DNA of 64,000 nucleotides. It comes from Escherichia phage vB_EcoM_CRJP21. The position numbers and the translations under genes were made by a program. The stretch lies in the sequence record OQ708376.1; one strand, given 5' to 3'. Below are positions 59,061 through 63,026 of the stretch, piece by piece (within the stretch, counting starts at the first letter, position 1; every line of letters begins with the position of its first letter). Under the pieces are notes generated by a model. It made no database searches, was not told where the DNA came from, and worked only from the letters and a program-made list of their open reading frames with translations.

Positions 59061-59683
59061 AAAATTTTATTTTGTTTTTTCCAATAGTTCCCCTACCGCG
59101 TGGGGATAGTTTCCCCGCAGTATCTGGTGTTAGATTTTTCTGAATCTGGAATCATTATCTTATAAACTGGGGGCAATGTCAACGGCCTGGCCGGATATTT
59201 TTAAAAATTTTTTCAGTACTGAATTTTGGGCGTAACTATGCACCCGGTGGGCTTGAGTCTTTCTCGACTTGATGGAACTATTATACAGTACTGGAAAAAT
59301 AAAGCAATACCCTGGAAGCAAAAAAGTTTTAATTAATTTGCTTGCTATCCTGGGCCGGACTATGGTACTATATTTCAGTACTGAGAAAGTGCGTTTACCT
59401 GCTAGGGTGCGGGAGTGTATCCTTTTTTTATATCTTGAATTTTGGACGGATCTTCCCACCCCCTGGGGTATCCGCTTTCTCGCGTCTATGTAGTAATTAT
59501 ACGCTTTTTCAGGATCAAGTCAATACCTAAAAACAAAATAATTGAAAATAATTTAACGCGTTTAAACGGCCTGTAAAGCCCTGGAATGATTGGAATGGTG
59601 CAAATGTATAGCTTATGTGTATTAATGCGTTAGAATGCGTCTGAGGACGTTTTACGGGGTATAGGGATGATTTAGTGGATTGA

Positions 59684-59772
59684 TTCAGTACTGAATAATA
59701 GTACTCCTATATAGAAAGATAGTTCCCCTGGATGATTGCAGTACTGAATAATAGTACTCCTATATAGAAAGA
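59684..59772. repeat. two copies of a ~35-bp direct repeat
   Basis: tcagtactgaataatagtactcctatatagaaaga at about 59686 and about 59737. Confidence 0.6.
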
Positions 59773-59802
59773 AAACTATTTTAAAAGTATTTGTAGAAAG
59801 TA

Positions 59803-59865
59803 CTTGCACCGTACTGATAAAAGCGTATAATGTTTTACATCGAGAGCGGGAACACTTCCCGCTAC
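59803..59865 (+). promoter_or_regulatory. early promoter plus 5'-UTR stem-loop module
   Basis: acttgcac...tataat then hairpin agcggga-acac-ttcccgct. Confidence 0.55.
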
Positions 59866-59886
59866 ACATTAAGAGAGATTAAAACG

Positions 59887-60249
59887 ATGGCGACTCAAAT
59901 CAATAAAATCATGCTTAACCTGGTAAACTTCCGCGATGAGATGAAAGGTCTTCCGGCTGAAACTGTAAAAATTCACATTGCAGCTTATCGGGAACTTATT
60001 GCAATGTTGCCGCTTAAGCGTGAACAATACGCCGCTACTTTGATGCTGGATTCAATGATCCATATAATGATCTCAAATGATTTGACGATGGTTTATCAGT
60101 ATATGGGCGAAAATTTCGCGGTGTGTAGTAAGCCAGTACCAGGGATGGCAACAACTGAGGAATTGCACGGCTTAAACTTAAAACAAGATGCATGGGATAA
60201 TATGCCTCGTTTCCTGGTATGGGCTGACAGTGGCAAAATTTACAAATAA
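59887..60249 (+). CDS. hypothetical protein (120 aa)
   Basis: start trimmed from track ORF 59830, which begins inside the -10 element. Confidence 0.6.
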   Translation: MATQINKIMLNLVNFRDEMKGLPAETVKIHIAAYRELIAMLPLKREQYAATLMLDSMIHIMISNDLTMVYQYMGENFAVCSKPVPGMATTEELHGLNLKQDAWDNMPRFLVWADSGKIYK

Positions 60250-60262
60250 GTTTAATAAAGTA

Positions 60263-60322
60263 CTTGCAAACTATGTTTAATGGCGTATAATGTTTTACAT
60301 CAGGTGGGGAATAGTTCCCCAC
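60263..60322 (+). promoter_or_regulatory. early promoter plus 5'-UTR stem-loop module
   Basis: acttgcaaactatgtttaatggcgtataat then hairpin gtgggga-atag-ttccccac. Confidence 0.55.
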
Positions 60323-60342
60323 TATATAAGAGGATTAAAAAA

Positions 60343-60582
60343 ATGGCTAAATCAAAAATGTTCTTAGGTCACAAAAACAAAACTCATTGGAATGTAAGCC
60401 TTTGGATTAATAACGATGAGGGATTGTATCGGTTGGCCCAGGACTTTATTAACGATAGCACTAATCGCAATGATGCGGCCCGTCATATGATGTTATTTTT
60501 AGAACAGACTGGACAAGATAAAACACCGGACGGATTCAAATATAGCACTACTGCGATCCGTGCGGCGATGGTTGGAATGTAA
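60343..60582 (+). CDS. hypothetical protein (79 aa)
   Basis: trimmed from track ORF 60280. Confidence 0.55.
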   Translation: MAKSKMFLGHKNKTHWNVSLWINNDEGLYRLAQDFINDSTNRNDAARHMMLFLEQTGQDKTPDGFKYSTTAIRAAMVGM

Positions 60583-60668
60583 TAGAATTTATTTAAAGTA
60601 CTATCATTTTTTTGCGATAGTACTTTATAATAGTGTTTTATTCATACACCAACGATAAGGGCAACAGC

Positions 60669-60935
60669 ATGAAAATTAAGTATTTTGCGACGCGTGAACA
60701 AGCTCGGATCGCCGCACGCCAGGACGGGGCAACGTTTAAAGATATGGGCGTACAATCGGAACGTGGTAAACGTTGGGCCATTGTAAAGCGTAGTACCGCC
60801 AGATCATTACAGTACTGGTTAGCGGCCTTAAAAAGTCCCGATAGTGTATCGCGTCGAGTGGTAGAAATAAAGCTCGACCGAAAGGGCAACCGCGTGACCG
60901 TGTACCGTACTAAAAAGATTGCAGTACTTGAATAA
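60669..60935 (+). CDS. hypothetical protein (88 aa)
   Basis: trimmed from track ORF 60633; upstream inverted repeat agtactatc...gatagtact and tataat. Confidence 0.55.
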   Translation: MKIKYFATREQARIAARQDGATFKDMGVQSERGKRWAIVKRSTARSLQYWLAALKSPDSVSRRVVEIKLDRKGNRVTVYRTKKIAVLE

Positions 60936-60942
60936 AAAGTAC

Positions 60943-61002
60943 TTGCAAACTATGTTTAATGGCGTATAATGTTTTACATCGAGAGCGGGAACTCTTCCCG
61001 CC
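60943..61002 (+). promoter_or_regulatory. early promoter plus 5'-UTR stem-loop module
   Basis: same ~45-bp promoter sequence as at 60263; hairpin agcggga-actc-ttcccgc. Confidence 0.55.
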
Positions 61003-61016
61003 TATAACCTGGAGTA

Positions 61017-61253
61017 ATGAAAATGACTAATATGTATATGACTGAAGTTAAAACCGTAAAAGATACTACCACGAATAAAACTACTTACTTACAGCGGATC
61101 TGTGGTGTATGGCAACGTATCAGCAAATCAAAGTACTTTAAATTAACATCATATGCAAACCGTTCGGATTCATTCAGTACTGAAATAAAAGGTAATAAAG
61201 TACACCAATACGGCACTTATTATTATTATAGCCTGGACGCGATTGCAGTATAA
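61017..61253 (+). CDS. hypothetical protein (78 aa)
   Basis: ORF with SD ggag. Confidence 0.55.
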   Translation: MKMTNMYMTEVKTVKDTTTNKTTYLQRICGVWQRISKSKYFKLTSYANRSDSFSTEIKGNKVHQYGTYYYYSLDAIAV

Positions 61254-61282
61254 GCAGTTTACAAATCTTTACAATTGCCGGT

Positions 61283-61312: not shown

Positions 61313-61500
61313 GTATTCATTGGCAGATAAGCCGTAGCCCATAGGGTGCGGGAGTGTATCTATAGAAAAATTAGTTTAGTATAGTTACAATTGTGCACCC
61401 GGTGGGTTAGCTGTTGTCATGGGGTATATTATACCAGTACTTGATAATGCTGTCAATACTTTTTTTTTACTATTCAGTACTGAAAACTATTTTTAAAAAG

Positions 61501-61575
61501 TACTTGCAAACTATGTTTAAAGGCGTATAATGTTTTACATCAGGACGGGGAACGAAATAAGTAACTTCCCGTTAA
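61501..61575 (+). promoter_or_regulatory. early promoter plus 5' stem-loop module with no ORF downstream (candidate sRNA)
   Basis: same promoter sequence; hairpin gacgggga...ttcccgt; next ATG only at 61682 after another promoter. Confidence 0.45.
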
Positions 61576-61621
61576 GTAGCCCAGGAGTAAGGCACACGAA
61601 AAACTCCCCTGATAAAATAGT

Positions 61622-61650
61622 TTGACAAATGTTTTTAAAAGCGTATAATA
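61622..61650 (+). promoter_or_regulatory. sigma70-like promoter
   Basis: ttgaca-N17-tataat. Confidence 0.55.
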
Positions 61651-61681
61651 CTTACATCAACTACTGAATGAGGGTTACAAA

Positions 61682-62293
61682 ATGAAAACTATCACTACTA
61701 CTACTTATGTTATGGCTTTTTCTGAATTGAACGCAGAACAACAAACGTCAGCTATCGAACTGGTTCGGGAACGTGAAAAAAACTCAAACGACAATTATTT
61801 TTCTGAAAGTGAAATTGAATACTATAAAGAAACAGTACTACCGGAATATGGCATTAATGACGCTGAAATACAATTCAGTGGTTTTTGGTCCCAGGGTGAC
61901 GGTGCATCAATCAGTACTGACCACGTTGACGCAGTGAAGTTTTTACGCAAGGTAAGAGCATTAACTAAGTATCGCTCAATCCGTCACTTGCTGAATGAAG
62001 ATGATTTGGCGATGAGTGTAAAACGTTCGCACTCCCACTACTCGCATGAGAATACTGTAAGCGGGTACATTGAATCGGCTTACACTGATTTAACCGCAAA
62101 ACAAGAAACGTTAGTTAATGAGCTTGAGGAACTACTCACTGAAACTATTCGTGAATTGTCCCGCAAGTTGTACCGTGATTTAGAGAATGCATATGAGGAT
62201 CAATTCACTACTGAAAACATTACGGCACTGATTGAGGGTAACGAATATCAATTCAATGTTATTGATGGCGTAGTAGAATCAATCGAATATTAA
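61682..62293 (+). CDS. hypothetical protein (203 aa)
   Basis: SD gaggg. Confidence 0.65.
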   Translation: MKTITTTTYVMAFSELNAEQQTSAIELVREREKNSNDNYFSESEIEYYKETVLPEYGINDAEIQFSGFWSQGDGASISTDHVDAVKFLRKVRALTKYRSIRHLLNEDDLAMSVKRSHSHYSHENTVSGYIESAYTDLTAKQETLVNELEELLTETIRELSRKLYRDLENAYEDQFTTENITALIEGNEYQFNVIDGVVESIEY

Positions 62294-62300
62294 TTTAAAA

Positions 62301-62366
62301 AGTACTTGCAAACTAAGTTTAAAAGCGTATAATACTTTATATCGAGAGCGGGAATAGTTCCCGCTA
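62301..62366 (+). promoter_or_regulatory. early promoter plus 5'-UTR stem-loop module
   Basis: acttgcaaactaagtttaaaagcgtataat; hairpin agcggga-atag-ttcccgct. Confidence 0.55.
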
Positions 62367-62385
62367 CTAATGAGGAATACTACAA

Positions 62386-62550
62386 ATGAATACTTTTACC
62401 TTCGCTCAATTGAACGCCCTGGATGTATTGTCTGATGCTTTGCGGGATGCAACTGAAAGCGGTTTATTTGACAATGTTGACATTCACCCTGATGTAATTA
62501 ATAATTTTTGTGATGCTATCGCAGAAGTACTGGAAGATCTAAAAAAATAA
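62386..62550 (+). CDS. hypothetical small protein (54 aa)
   Basis: hand-translated MNTFTFAQLNALDVL...; below track cutoff. Confidence 0.45.
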   Translation: MNTFTFAQLNALDVLSDALRDATESGLFDNVDIHPDVINNFCDAIAEVLEDLKK

Positions 62551-62557
62551 TAGAAAG

Positions 62558-62621
62558 TACTTGCAATTAGTTTTCAGTACTGTATAATGGTTTACATCAA
62601 AGGGAGAAATGGTTCTCCCTG
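62558..62621 (+). promoter_or_regulatory. early promoter plus 5'-UTR stem-loop module
   Basis: ttgcaa-N17-tataat; hairpin agggagaa-atgg-ttctccct. Confidence 0.55.
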
Positions 62622-62638
62622 GTAATGAGGAAAATACA

Positions 62639-62860
62639 ATGGCTAATATCACTACTCTTTCCCAACTGGAAGCACTGGTTAAATCTATGCGGGAACATGC
62701 TGACAAAATCGGCGTACAAGATCCAGCCGTTTGCTTCTGCGACGAATTGAATGATGATACCCTGGTAATAGCAGAAGTCCAGGACGTTTCTAACTATTCC
62801 TCGCGTTACACTGGCGGCGTAGCAAATAAAGGTGACTTCTGTTTATACCTTACAAAATAA
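62639..62860 (+). CDS. hypothetical protein (73 aa)
   Basis: trimmed from track ORF 62609. Confidence 0.55.
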   Translation: MANITTLSQLEALVKSMREHADKIGVQDPAVCFCDELNDDTLVIAEVQDVSNYSSRYTGGVANKGDFCLYLTK

Positions 62861-62862
62861 CA

Positions 62863-62896
62863 ACGCGGGGAGATAATAACTCCCCGTTACTTTTTC
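62863..62896 (+). terminator. intrinsic terminator
   Basis: hairpin cgggga-gataataa-ctccccg then ttactttttc. Confidence 0.55.
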
Positions 62897-63026
62897 AGTA
62901 CTGAATCATTTAATAGACGGATCTCGGCACCCGGTGGGTTAGTGACTGTTTCGTCTTGATGTAGTAATTATGCCAGTACTGGATGCACTTGTCAACAATT
63001 ATTTTCCAAATACTTTTTATTAAAAT

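What the first reader, a model, noticed from the sequence alone, without database searches (positions are those of the whole stretch)
59236..63000. Dispersed short repeat elements in intergenic gaps
Two motifs recur in non-coding gaps: (G)CACCCGGTGGG(C/T)T... followed by a variable stem (about 59241, 61394, 62927; related GCCCACCTGGTGGGCTT at 63984), and AGGGTGCGGGAGTGTATC (about 59405 and 61343). They lie outside ORFs, often after genes, and may be terminators, recombination sites or protein-binding sites.
Basis: seen in the sequence. Interest (0 to 1): 0.45.

Follow-up and report, generated by a model that had tools for sequence, protein, structure and literature searches.

The report
Promoter-linked small RNA module family
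The two repeated motifs are opposite-strand views of one ~55-base transcribed module that follows strong bacterial-type promoters; it occurs nine times in the terminal repeat of a giant E. coli phage and in all its relatives examined, and looks like an undescribed family of very early non-coding RNAs whose role is unknown.

Summary
Both motifs are real and far above chance. They are one element read on opposite strands. Motif 1 (GCACCCGGTGGG) is the reverse complement of an invariant 12-mer, CCCAYNGGGTGC. Motif 2 (AGGGTGCGGGAGTGTATC) is the second half of that 12-mer plus a small hairpin.

In 52 of 58 distinct copies (window plus related phages) the 12-mer lies 20-30 nt downstream of a near-consensus sigma-70 promoter, against 2.7% of random positions.

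The window is an Asteriusvirus (121Q/RaK2-like jumbo phage, 98.9% identical to fEgEco12). Position 58150 is the start of its 21-kb direct terminal repeat. In fEgEco12 the module occurs nine times per repeat and nowhere in the 333 kb of unique sequence. It is also present in jumbo phages of Klebsiella, Salmonella, Cronobacter, Pectobacterium, Erwinia and Yersinia.

The 5' hairpin shows compensatory changes; the second hairpin varies only in wobble-compatible ways. That points to an RNA.

No Rfam family, paper or annotation covers it. The copy at 63984 is an ordinary terminator, not a member.

Most likely these are immediate-early small RNAs or leader modules whose invariant 12-mer is a recognition site. 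The function is unproven.

The parts
59216..59307 (-). Unit 1, leftward. -35 TTGCTT 59307-59302, 16-nt spacer, -10 TATAAT 59285-59280. Inferred start at the A of CAT, about 59273. 5' hairpin AGUC/GACU with loop GAGAAA. GGGUG pairs with CGCCC at 59232-59228.
   Evidence: Covariance-model hit 59216-59272 (-), 39.4 bits, E 5e-8. Coordinates checked. The predicted fold shows both hairpins. The -35 is weak (3 of 6), so this promoter is the least certain of the four canonical units.
59342..59431 (+). Unit 2, rightward and degenerate. Possible promoter TTGCTA 59342-59347 / 18 nt / TACTAT 59366-59371. 5' hairpin GUACU-GAGAA-AGUGC 59378-59392. The CCCA half of the core is lost. Predicted RNA about 54 nt.
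   Evidence: Partial model hit 59403-59422 (+), model positions 26-45, E 0.014. Terminator scan hit 59404-59423. Fold. The promoter matches only 8 of 12 and is inferred.
59432..59523 (-). Unit 3, leftward and degenerate; it faces unit 2. -35 TTGACT 59523-59518, 16-nt spacer, -10 TATAAT 59501-59496. Start CAT at 59490. Hairpin CGC-GAGAAA-GCG. Diverged core CCCCAGGGGGTGGG 59468-59455, then CCGUCC.
   Evidence: Promoter 11 of 12. Full-length but weak model alignment, 10.9 bits, E 0.62. Membership rests on the shared anatomy (repeat family D9).
61284..61373 (+). Unit 4, rightward. -35 TTGACT 61284-61289, 17-nt spacer, TG-extended -10 CATAAT 61307-61312. Start about 61319. 5' hairpin UGGC-AGAUAA-GCCG. 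Core CCCATAGGGTGC 61338-61349. Loop GGGAGT, then GTATCT 61356-61361.
   Evidence: Model hit 61318-61373, 57.4 bits, E 2e-12. Promoter. Coordinates.
61371..61456 (-). Unit 5, leftward; it faces unit 4, with inferred starts about 101 nt apart. -35 TTGACA 61456-61451, 17-nt spacer, TG-extended -10 TATAAT 61433-61428 (12 of 12). Start about 61420. Short A-rich leader with no 5' hairpin.
   Evidence: Model hit 61371-61424 (-), 41.3 bits. Promoter. Units 4 and 5 together form a ~100-bp imperfect inverted repeat. A transcript across it folds at -42.7 kcal/mol (z -5.9) on the + strand and -28.8 (z -4.5) on the - strand.
62858..62995 (-). Unit 6, leftward and stand-alone. -35 TTGACA 62995-62990, 17-nt spacer, -10 CATAAT 62972-62967. 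Start about 62960. Hairpin GAC-GAAACA-GUC. Then CGUCU, CAGUACUG, and a bidirectional terminator hairpin 62886-62866 with a U-rich tail. Predicted RNA about 103 nt.
   Evidence: Model hit 62903-62959 (-), 50.4 bits. Promoter and terminator. Fold. The same layout (promoter, module, terminator 33-40 nt after the core) occurs in 12 of 58 copies in relatives.
63984..64000 (+). Not a family member. Intrinsic terminator GCCCACC-T-GGTGGGC after the gene at 63746-63976. The T-run continues beyond the window end.
   Evidence: The identical fEgEco12 sequence continues GCCCACCTGGTGGGCTTTTTTGTTTTTG. No model hit. No promoter on either side.
58150..64000 (.). Context: the first 5.85 kb of the 20,993-bp direct terminal repeat. 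Window 58150 equals position 1 of the fEgEco12 record, the physical left end.
   Evidence: An exact 30-mer maps 58150 to record position 1 and to 353741. The termini were determined with PhageTerm and restriction digests (PMC13070987).

Best explanation
The motifs belong to one repeated transcription unit.

Each copy has, in order:
- a strong host-type (sigma-70) promoter;
- a start at a conserved CAT;
- an A-rich 5' segment that usually forms a 3-5 bp hairpin (P1);
- the invariant 12-mer CCCAYNGGGUGC;
- a second small hairpin (P2), in which GGGUG(C) pairs with a downstream (G)YRYYY.

Host RNA polymerase would transcribe these units as soon as the terminal repeat enters the cell. The products would be short non-coding RNAs of about 50-105 nt, or 5' leaders of early messages.

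Shown here:
- the unit anatomy;
- the promoter coupling;
- the RNA-type pairing pattern;
- confinement to the terminal repeat;
- conservation across several genera of RaK2-like jumbo phages;
- distinct 5'-module types that are each conserved across genera.

Inferred:
- that the units are transcribed;
- that the active molecule is the RNA;
- that the invariant 12-mer, which never covaries, is read sequence-specifically by a conserved partner (a protein, or RNA polymerase itself).

My preferred sub-mechanism (about 0.35) is a multicopy family of immediate-early small RNAs that bind a conserved host or phage factor. In that reading the constant 12-mer plus P2 acts as a handle, and the paralog-specific 5' module gives each copy its specificity. 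A cis action on the transcribing polymerase is the main alternative.
For: Promoter coupling: 52 of 58 distinct copies have a promoter match of at least 10 of 12 ending 20-30 nt upstream of the core. Only 1 of 58 does in the opposite orientation, and 2.7% of random positions in the same loci do. The window copies include a 12/12 and two 11/12 promoters on the minus strand.

RNA-type structure:
- All four P1 pairs show changes on both sides. On the MAFFT alignment, 53 cells are compensatory against 23 +/- 4 in shuffles (0 of 500 shuffles reach it).
- On the model-fitted alignment, pair 6-23 is CG 17 / AU 16 / GC 14.
- P2 is 91% paired, against 27-51% when the partner columns are slid.
- The P2 3' strand varies only U<->C and A<->G, so it always stays paired with the invariant GGGUG through G-U wobble. 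Three pairs have 0 of 55 unpaired.
- In one copy P2 is followed by U7 and scores as a terminator.

Stand-alone gene anatomy: 12 of 58 copies have their own terminator 33-40 nt after the core.

Distribution:
- In fEgEco12 there are nine copies per terminal repeat. None lies in the 333 kb of unique sequence, either by exact pattern or by covariance model at E<=1.
- There are 77 model hits in 18 loci from RaK2, GAP32, CBB, 121Q, the record whose length matches fHe-Yen9-04, and metagenomic contigs.
- BLAST finds one 5'-module type in 54 records. Their lengths, where listed, are 310-386 kb apart from one 52-kb Klebsiella record.
- Hits lie inside annotated terminal repeats in vB_Ec-M-J, Muenster and CBB.

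Ancient paralogs: 5'-module types such as CAUUGGCAGAUAAGCC are shared by up to 8 phage groups, while the P2 loops differ.

Analogy: the distant relative PA5oct has two highly expressed ncRNAs in its terminal repeat, by RNA-seq (PMC7318152).
Against: - There are no expression data for any phage that carries the module. Promoters and start sites are consensus matches only.
- Single-sequence folds are not markedly more stable than shuffles (z -0.3 to -2.0).
- The evidence for P2 is one-sided variation, which a transition bias could partly mimic.
- An alternative mini-hairpin, RCCC-AYN-GGGU, is 99.5% pairable and excludes P2, so the fold is not settled.
- About a quarter of copies lack P1.
- Only 12 of 58 copies have a classic terminator. 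21 run into the next promoter or gene and at least one is a true 5' UTR. That fits a cis-acting leader as well as a trans-acting RNA.
- No partner or target was found. The 5' modules are no more complementary to the phage genome than shuffled versions are, and host targets could not be searched.
Confidence: 0.65

Rival explanations
1. Cis-acting elongation signal. The module acts on the polymerase that makes it, as a promoter-proximal pause or loading site, or as an antitermination RNA. It would work like HK022 put, lambda nut or the ops element, letting some early transcripts read through the many terminators of the terminal repeat.
For: - The module always lies within about +15 to +60 of a promoter, in every context, including a real 5' UTR.
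- The region is dense in terminators.
- Copies are spaced every 1.6-4.8 kb along the repeat.
- The sequence fits the consensus elemental pause G-10 Y-1 G+1 (my own knowledge of that consensus): GGG at alignment columns 34-36, T at column 45 in over 90% of copies and G at column 46 in 64%. The CCC-AYN-GGG mini-hairpin would then end at -10, where pause hairpins sit.
Against: - The core starts anywhere from about +14 to +24, which is loose for a geometry-dependent DNA signal.
- 12 copies are followed by a strong terminator and nothing coding beyond it, and 17 face another copy. Read-through in those places would only make antisense RNA.
- A 3-bp, 3-nt-loop hairpin is much smaller than known pause hairpins.
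- The core does not match ops (GGCGGTAGNNTG).
Confidence: 0.2
2. Duplex-DNA site. CCCAYNGGGTGC is an operator or recognition site for a phage or host DNA-binding protein (a repressor or roadblock for early promoters, a nicking or recombination enzyme, or a modification enzyme). The RNA would be irrelevant.
For: Ten invariant bases around two free central positions, with no covariation, is typical of direct sequence readout. RCCC-NNN-GGGT has partial dyad symmetry. The sites are confined to the terminal repeat, which has special DNA transactions.
Against: - Duplex DNA recognition explains neither the compensatory P1 changes nor the G-U-only variation opposite GGGUG. That variation is strand-specific; on the other strand the pairs become C-A mismatches.
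- The strict orientation relative to a promoter is not required of a DNA site.
Confidence: 0.08
3. Mobile promoter cassette only. This would be a second kind of PeSL-like terminator/promoter repeat that spreads and shuffles small early genes by recombination. The transcribed part would have no function of its own.
For: - The surrounding genes each carry a repeated promoter-hairpin-SD cassette (repeat families D1-D3), like the PeSLs of T4-type phages (PMC4122927).
- In many + copies the -35 sits in the loop of the upstream gene's terminator hairpin.
- Copies are mosaic: 121Q has a different P1 at the orthologous site of unit 4.
- Near-identical 60-nt stretches occur in opposite orientations at fEgEco12 4785(-) and 11211(+).
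Against: - Recombination homology does not explain a 12-mer that is identical across genera whose genomes share under 30% ANI (Table 2 of PMC13070987) while its flanks diverge.
- It also does not explain pairing-preserving substitutions.
Confidence: 0.05
4. Intrinsic terminators of the upstream genes.
For: Two sites qualify. 63984 is a perfect hairpin plus a T-run. 59404-59430 is a hairpin plus T7.
Against: The three motif-1 copies have no T-run on the + strand, and CACC-C-GGTG cannot form a hairpin. They are downstream of opposite-strand promoters. The real terminator of the gene ending at 62860 is the separate hairpin at 62865-62887.
Confidence: 0.02

Closest known systems
PeSL (promoter-early stem-loop) cassettes of T4-type phages (PMC2839356, PMC4122927)
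   Same: Both are repeated composite terminator/promoter cassettes with near-consensus sigma-70 promoters. Both are concentrated in regions of small early ORFan genes, and copies are mosaic. The window's + strand gene promoters (AAAGTACTTGCAA-N16-TATAAT-hairpin-SD-ATG) fit this description well.
   Different: The family studied here carries a conserved transcribed module with an invariant 12-mer. It usually has no SD or start codon and occurs in both orientations and as face-to-face pairs. It is confined to the terminal repeat and conserved across genera. PeSLs as described have no such transcribed core.
Promoter-proximal antitermination or loading elements: HK022 put RNA, lambda nut (boxA/boxB), ops/RfaH
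   Same: These too are short elements placed just after early promoters. They involve small hairpins and/or a ~12-nt sequence read specifically. They occur in phage early regions rich in terminators.
   Different: Many copies here have nothing coding downstream to antiterminate into. No partner protein is known.
Multicopy bacterial small RNA families with an invariant motif (for example Qrr, OmrA/B, LhrC; named from memory)
   Same: Several paralogous ~100-nt genes with their own promoter and, in part, their own terminator. Each has an invariant short motif plus variable parts, and all are expressed together.
   Different: No target, chaperone or expression data exist. Half of the copies lack a classic terminator. 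The invariant motif is partly inside a helix.
ncRNA001/002 in the terminal repeat of Pseudomonas jumbo phage PA5oct (PMC7318152)
   Same: Non-coding transcripts located in the long terminal repeat of a related jumbo phage. They are highly expressed from early infection (2.4-5% of phage reads).
   Different: They are 236-451 nt long and share no sequence. The 12-mer is absent from the PA5oct repeat beyond chance. This is an analogy only.
ColE1 RNA I / RNA II and other face-to-face sense/antisense pairs
   Same: Two promoters face each other about 100-112 bp apart (61319/61420 and 59377/59489), giving fully overlapping ~100-nt transcripts with stem-loops.
   Different: Nothing indicates a replication origin or a regulated downstream gene. 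Most copies are single, not paired.

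Membership tests
Intrinsic (Rho-independent) terminator | G+C-rich hairpin followed directly by a T/U run, on the strand of the upstream gene | tested here: not met
   Not met for the motif-1 copies at 59241, 61396 and 62928: no T-run and no foldable stem on the + strand. Met only for 63984 and for the degenerate copy at 59404-59430.
PeSL cassette (T4-type phages) | Near-consensus sigma-70 early promoter | tested here: met
   52 of 58 copies match at least 10 of 12, with 16-18 bp spacing.
PeSL cassette (T4-type phages) | Stem-loop/terminator immediately upstream of the promoter | tested here: inconclusive
   Present in many + copies, where the -35 TTGACT lies in the loop of AAAGGGA...TCCCTTT (fEgEco12 9553, 13546, 16820, 19567). 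Absent from the window's copies.
PeSL cassette (T4-type phages) | Shine-Dalgarno and start codon of the downstream gene at the 3' end of the cassette | tested here: not met
   Only 2 of 58 copies are followed first by an SD-ATG. 12 end at a terminator and 17 face another copy.
Any Rfam 15 family | Covariance-model match | tested here: not met
   At gathering thresholds the window gives only tRNAs. At E<=5 the stretch 58000-64000 gives two chance-level hits elsewhere.
Trans-acting small RNA gene | Own promoter and own terminator bounding a ~50-300-nt non-coding transcript | tested here: inconclusive
   Every copy has a promoter. A classic terminator is present in 12 of 58. In face-to-face pairs the partner's antisense core gives an 11-12 bp G+C-rich stem. 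21 copies run into the next promoter.
Trans-acting small RNA gene | Complementarity to target RNAs | tested here: not met
   Tested within the phage genome only. The longest complementary stretches are 10-12 nt, equal to shuffled controls. Host transcripts could not be tested with these tools.
Trans-acting small RNA gene | Detected transcript; binding to Hfq, ProQ or another partner | not testable with these tools
   No transcriptome of a phage carrying the module is in the library.
put/nut-type antitermination element | Promoter-proximal position in an early transcript | tested here: met
   The core begins about +14 to +24 from the inferred start in all copies.
put/nut-type antitermination element | Suppression of downstream terminators in cis; dependence on RNA polymerase or N/Nus factors | not testable with these tools
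   This needs in vitro transcription or reporter assays.
ops (RfaH loading) element | Sequence GGCGGTAGNNTG in the leader | tested here: not met
   The core plus loop reads GGGTGCNNNNNTG. It shares only GG-Y-G and the final TG (alignment A1; ops consensus from my own knowledge).
Chi site | GCTGGTGG | tested here: not met
   The core and its complement differ from Chi at 3 or more of 8 positions. True Chi sites are separate, though often adjacent.

The most novel reading that the evidence does not exclude
The modules are a dedicated RNA system of the host-takeover region. A constant 12-nt 'handle' (CCCAYNGGGUGC plus P2) would be bound by one conserved, still unknown protein. It is joined to at least six ancient, paralog-specific 5' modules that are kept nearly unchanged from E. 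coli phages to Klebsiella, Cronobacter and Pectobacterium phages. Each module would direct the complex to a different conserved host RNA or protein. That would make this a guide-like or decoy-like RNA arsenal, fired from the first DNA to enter the cell, for shut-off of host functions or for anti-defence.
Probability: 0.15. Interest if true: 0.8.

Novelty: new variant of a known kind. Interest (0 to 1): 0.58.

Why it matters
RaK2/121Q-like jumbo phages are used as therapy candidates, yet their 20-kb terminal repeats are annotated only as strings of hypothetical proteins. This analysis shows that the repeat also carries nine or more copies of a conserved, promoter-driven RNA module that no record annotates. 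The 12-nt core is identical across genera whose genomes share under 30% ANI.

If the modules are expressed, they would be among the first and most abundant phage transcripts. They would give a concrete handle on how these phages start host takeover. The work also supplies a ready covariance model and exact coordinates for testing. It corrects the picture of these gaps as simple terminators and shows that several early 'intergenic' gaps hold opposite-strand transcription units.

Tried and rejected
- Coding potential. Two copies start with AUG (for example 61420(-): MTTANPPGAQL). Most start with AUU, AUA or AUC. One AUG copy stops before the core, and the TA variant of the core puts UAG in that frame (sequences). 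Rejected.
- ORF 59160-59459 (-), 99 aa. No PHROG family. It is annotated in only one of the two identical repeat copies and spans three promoter units. Treated as spurious.
- Long-range helix between the 5' end (AUAGA, CAGAUA) and UCUAU after P2. Matched lead/tail pairs are no better than mismatched ones (-4.41 vs -4.29 kcal/mol, permutation p 0.29). Rejected.
- Antisense targets of the 5' modules inside the phage genome. None beyond chance.
- Host or prophage homologue. No BLAST match in 5,426 complete E. coli genomes at E<=10.
- Homology with the PA5oct terminal-repeat ncRNAs. The 12-mer is absent there beyond chance.
- Rfam. No match.
- Literature. The 12-mer strings occur only as unrelated primers or sequences.
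- Chi-like or Type I restriction-like reading of the core. AAC-N7-GTGC is present only in copies preceded by AA, and the EcoKI site is N6 (my own knowledge). Rejected.
- Thermodynamic stability of single copies. Not significant, so the case for structure rests on comparative evidence only.

Full report
**What the window is.** The last 5.5 kb of the window is 98.9% identical to the start of Escherichia phage fEgEco12 (PP777464.1, 374,733 bp). It matches about 190 records in all, most of them Escherichia phages and the best ones 121Q/PBECO4-type jumbo phages (Asteriusvirus). The fEgEco12 genome has 20,993-bp direct terminal repeats whose ends were determined with PhageTerm and confirmed by restriction digests (PMC13070987). 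Window position 58150 corresponds exactly to record position 1 and to 353741, the starts of the two repeat copies. The finding therefore lies in the first 1.1-4.9 kb of the terminal repeat. This is a region of very small ORFan genes; Pfam finds only one DUF among ten of them. Each gene has its own promoter-hairpin-SD cassette (repeat families D1-D3). That organisation resembles the PeSL cassettes of T4-type phages (PMC4122927).

**Checking the observation.**
- CACCCGGTGGG is exact at 59241, 61396 and 62928, with a one-mismatch palindrome at 63985. That is 5 hits against 0.17 expected.
- AGGGTGCGGGAGTGTATC is exact at 59404 and 61343, against 0 expected.
- The motifs lie outside convincing genes.
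- The one overlapping ORF (59160-59459, minus strand) has no PHROG match and is annotated in only one of two identical repeat copies.

**The two motifs are one element.** Read on the minus strand, motif 1 is CCCACCGGGTGC. On the plus strand, motif 2 at 61343 is preceded by GCCCAT, giving CCCATAGGGTGC. The pattern CCCAYNGGGTGC has four hits in the window against 0.00 expected.

The scan finds three minus-strand promoters: TTGACA/17/TATAAT (12 of 12) at 61456-61428, TTGACA/17/CATAAT at 62995-62967 and TTGACT/16/TATAAT at 59523-59496. It also finds a plus-strand TTGACT/17/CATAAT at 61284-61312. All coordinates were re-read.

The window holds six units:
- four canonical ones, with model E-values from 2e-12 to 5e-8: 59216-59307(-), 61284-61373(+), 61371-61456(-) and 62858-62995(-);
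- one partial copy (59342-59431, +), which has lost the CCCA half and whose second hairpin plus T7 is a terminator;
- one diverged copy (59432-59523, -).

They form two face-to-face pairs and two single leftward units. The copy at 63984 is an ordinary terminator of the preceding gene.

**Genome-wide test.** I fetched the whole fEgEco12 genome. CCCAYNGGGTGC occurs nine times in each repeat copy: at 1099-, 3197+, 3254-, 4785-, 9553+, 11211+, 13546+, 16820+ and 19567+. It occurs once in the 333 kb of unique sequence. That single outside hit is a look-alike, a plus-strand terminator GCACCCAATGGGTGC-T6. A covariance model built from the family finds hits only inside the repeat when run over the window plus fEgEco12 positions 1-325,000 at E<=1.

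**Anatomy.** All nine fEgEco12 copies share one layout, as do 58 distinct copies collected from relatives:
- a -35 TTGAC[AT], a 16-18 bp spacer and a -10;
- a conserved CAT 5-7 nt later (the inferred start);
- a leader such that the -10 ends 20-30 nt before the core;
- the invariant core;
- six variable nucleotides, then (G)YRYYY.

52 of 58 copies have a promoter match of at least 10 of 12. Only 1 of 58 does in the reverse orientation, and 2.7% of random positions in the same loci do.

**Evidence for an RNA-level structure.** On a MAFFT alignment of 55 distinct copies (A1), all four pairs of the leader hairpin P1 change on both sides. There are 53 compensatory cells against 23 +/- 4 in shuffles, and 0 of 500 shuffles reach the observed value. 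Slid controls give 8-21 cells. On the model-fitted alignment of 77 hits, one P1 pair is CG 17 / AU 16 / GC 14 (this alignment leans towards the model).

The second hairpin, P2 (GGGUGC with GYRYYY), is 91% paired, against 27-51% when slid. Its 5' strand never varies. Its 3' strand varies only U<->C and A<->G, which keeps every pair through G-U wobble, and three pairs have 0 of 55 unpaired. That pattern is strand-specific and is not expected of duplex DNA.

Caveats:
- A mini-hairpin RCCC-AYN-GGGU is 99.5% pairable, is invariant and excludes P2.
- Single-sequence folds are not significantly stable (z -0.3 to -2.0).
- A long-range 5'/3' helix suggested by some minimum-energy folds failed a permutation test (p 0.29).

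**Contexts.** Of the 58 copies:
- 21 are followed within 40-90 nt by the next promoter;
- 17 face another copy, with the core 45, 56 or 63 nt from the partner's antisense core;
- 12 have their own terminator 33-40 nt after the core, giving 92-107-nt units;
- 2 are followed directly by an SD-ATG, one of them a 55-nt 5' UTR of a 178-aa ORF;
- 6 show none of these features within the scanned stretch.

The face-to-face pair at 61319-61422 is a ~100-bp imperfect inverted repeat. A transcript across it would fold at -42.7 kcal/mol (z -5.9) on the plus strand and -28.8 (z -4.5) on the minus strand. Each unit's antisense core may therefore stop its partner. That is inference.

**Distribution and age.**
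- An exact-pattern scan of IMG/VR found the module in contigs whose lengths match RaK2 (345,809), GAP32 (358,663), CBB (378,379), fHe-Yen9-04 (354,378) and 121Q (348,532), and in others. In each genome the hits sit in a single 13-20 kb stretch.
- BLAST with one unit finds 54 phage records from Escherichia, Klebsiella, Salmonella, Pectobacterium, Cronobacter and Erwinia. Their lengths, where listed, are 310-386 kb apart from one 52-kb Klebsiella record.
- Most hits lie under no annotated feature; a few lie under a 'hypothetical protein'. The hits in vB_Ec-M-J, Muenster and CBB lie under annotated terminal repeats.
- The G17 record annotates terminators but not these units.
- Leader sequences fall into types that are each shared by several genera. 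CAUUGGCAGAUAAGCC occurs in 8 phage groups, CAUAGCAAGAACAAUGCU in 4 and CAAGCCAGAACAAAGGCG in 3, while P2 loops differ within a type. Several paralogous lineages therefore predate the split of these genera.

**What it most likely is.** The shown facts fit a promoter-coupled, structured RNA module made by host polymerase from the first DNA to enter the cell. The 12-mer never covaries even though it sits in or next to helices. It is therefore probably read as sequence by a conserved partner.

I rate 'transcribed RNA module family' at about 0.65. Within it I favour multicopy immediate-early small RNAs, with a constant handle and a paralog-specific 5' module (about 0.35), over a cis-acting pause or antitermination signal (about 0.2). 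The latter is suggested by the fixed promoter-proximal position. It is also suggested by a fit to the G-10 Y-1 G+1 pause consensus, with the CCC/GGG hairpin ending at -10. That consensus is from my own knowledge, and the fit was read from A1.

A duplex-DNA operator, a purely selfish promoter cassette and plain terminators are less likely, for the reasons given under rivals.

**What is known.** No Rfam family matches. The 12-mer appears in no relevant paper. No transcriptome of a phage carrying the module is in the library. The distant relative PA5oct does express two abundant ncRNAs from its terminal repeat (PMC7318152), but they lack the motif. No similar sequence exists in complete E. coli genomes. 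I therefore class this as an undescribed variant of a known kind: a phage small RNA or leader motif linked to early promoter cassettes.

**Limits.** Transcription, start sites, RNA ends and any partner are inferred. Host targets could not be searched. The alignment used for some pair counts was fitted to the proposed structure.

Noticed in passing
whole window; fEgEco12 genome (L001-L008): The palindrome AGTACT, most often as CAGTACTG, is strongly over-represented. The window has 232 hits against 20 expected. The genome has 977 against 119 expected from base composition, at 6.6 per kb in the terminal repeat and 2.5 per kb elsewhere. It sits inside promoter spacers, just upstream of -35 boxes, in RNA hairpins after the module, and in coding sequence. 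It also looks frequent in the fetched RaK2, CBB and GAP32 loci (by eye, not counted). The cause is unknown.
   Followed up: partly
window 58727-58746; fEgEco12 repeat positions 578-19625: Chi sites (GCTGGTGG) are concentrated in the terminal repeat: 10 on the + strand and 2 on the - strand, against 0.08 expected per strand. The rest of the genome has 24. A Chi/anti-Chi hairpin, CCACCAGC-ACAA-GCTGGTGG, lies 578-597 bp from the physical left end. Several family promoters in relatives carry Chi or its complement in their spacer. The orientations would suit protection of both linear ends from RecBCD, or RecBCD-driven recombination of the repeats. That reading is inference.
   Followed up: partly
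window 58928-59062: An array with an 8-bp period (GGATGGCT / AGACGGCT / AAACGGCT, about 16 units) lies 780-910 bp from the genome end, within a ~1.7-kb stretch without genes (58150-59830). Nearby are repeats of ATTTTGGGCGTA (58874, 58898, 59225) and a 53-bp tandem duplication (59676-59772). Possibly packaging or replication signals.
   Followed up: no
window 58150-58170: The boundary of the terminal repeat falls inside the window. The repeat starts with a hairpin, GGCAGAGGAAGTCTGCC. The window therefore spans the junction between unique sequence and repeat.
   Followed up: partly
L010 about 8085-8100; L014 about 1285-1300; L027; L031 about 6095-6110: In several face-to-face pairs of related phages the centre between the two units is AATGATAATCATT (or AATGAGAATCATT). 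This matches the central 13 bp of the E. coli Fur box consensus, which I quote from memory (sequences). The window's pair lacks it. It hints at iron-dependent control of some pairs.
   Followed up: no
fEgEco12 genome: Several 6-bp palindromes are completely absent: CCATGG (0 against 39 expected), ACCGGT (0 against 17), AGGCCT (0 against 14) and CCGCGG (0 against 6). This is consistent with avoidance of restriction sites.
   Followed up: no
window 59085-59116 (+); fEgEco12 946-967: AGTTCCCC-N8-GGGGATA matches both flanks (15 of 15 bases) of the E. coli type I-E CRISPR repeat GAGTTCCCCGCGCCAGCGGGGATAAACCG, quoted from memory. It occurs once per repeat copy in fEgEco12 and once in the fetched G17 stretch. 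The only nearby promoter (59182-59154, minus strand) would transcribe the antisense strand, and GTTCCCC/GGGGAA hairpins are common here, so this may be coincidence.
   Followed up: partly
window 59154-59182 (-): A further strong leftward promoter (TTGACA/17/GATAAT, 11 of 12) lacks the 12-mer module. It points through GGGGAA...UCCCC hairpins and the 8-bp array towards the genome end. In all, five leftward promoters lie within 5 kb of the left end.
   Followed up: no
window 141-3808: A cluster of seven tRNA genes (Gly, Ser x2, Arg, Met, Asn, Thr).
   Followed up: no
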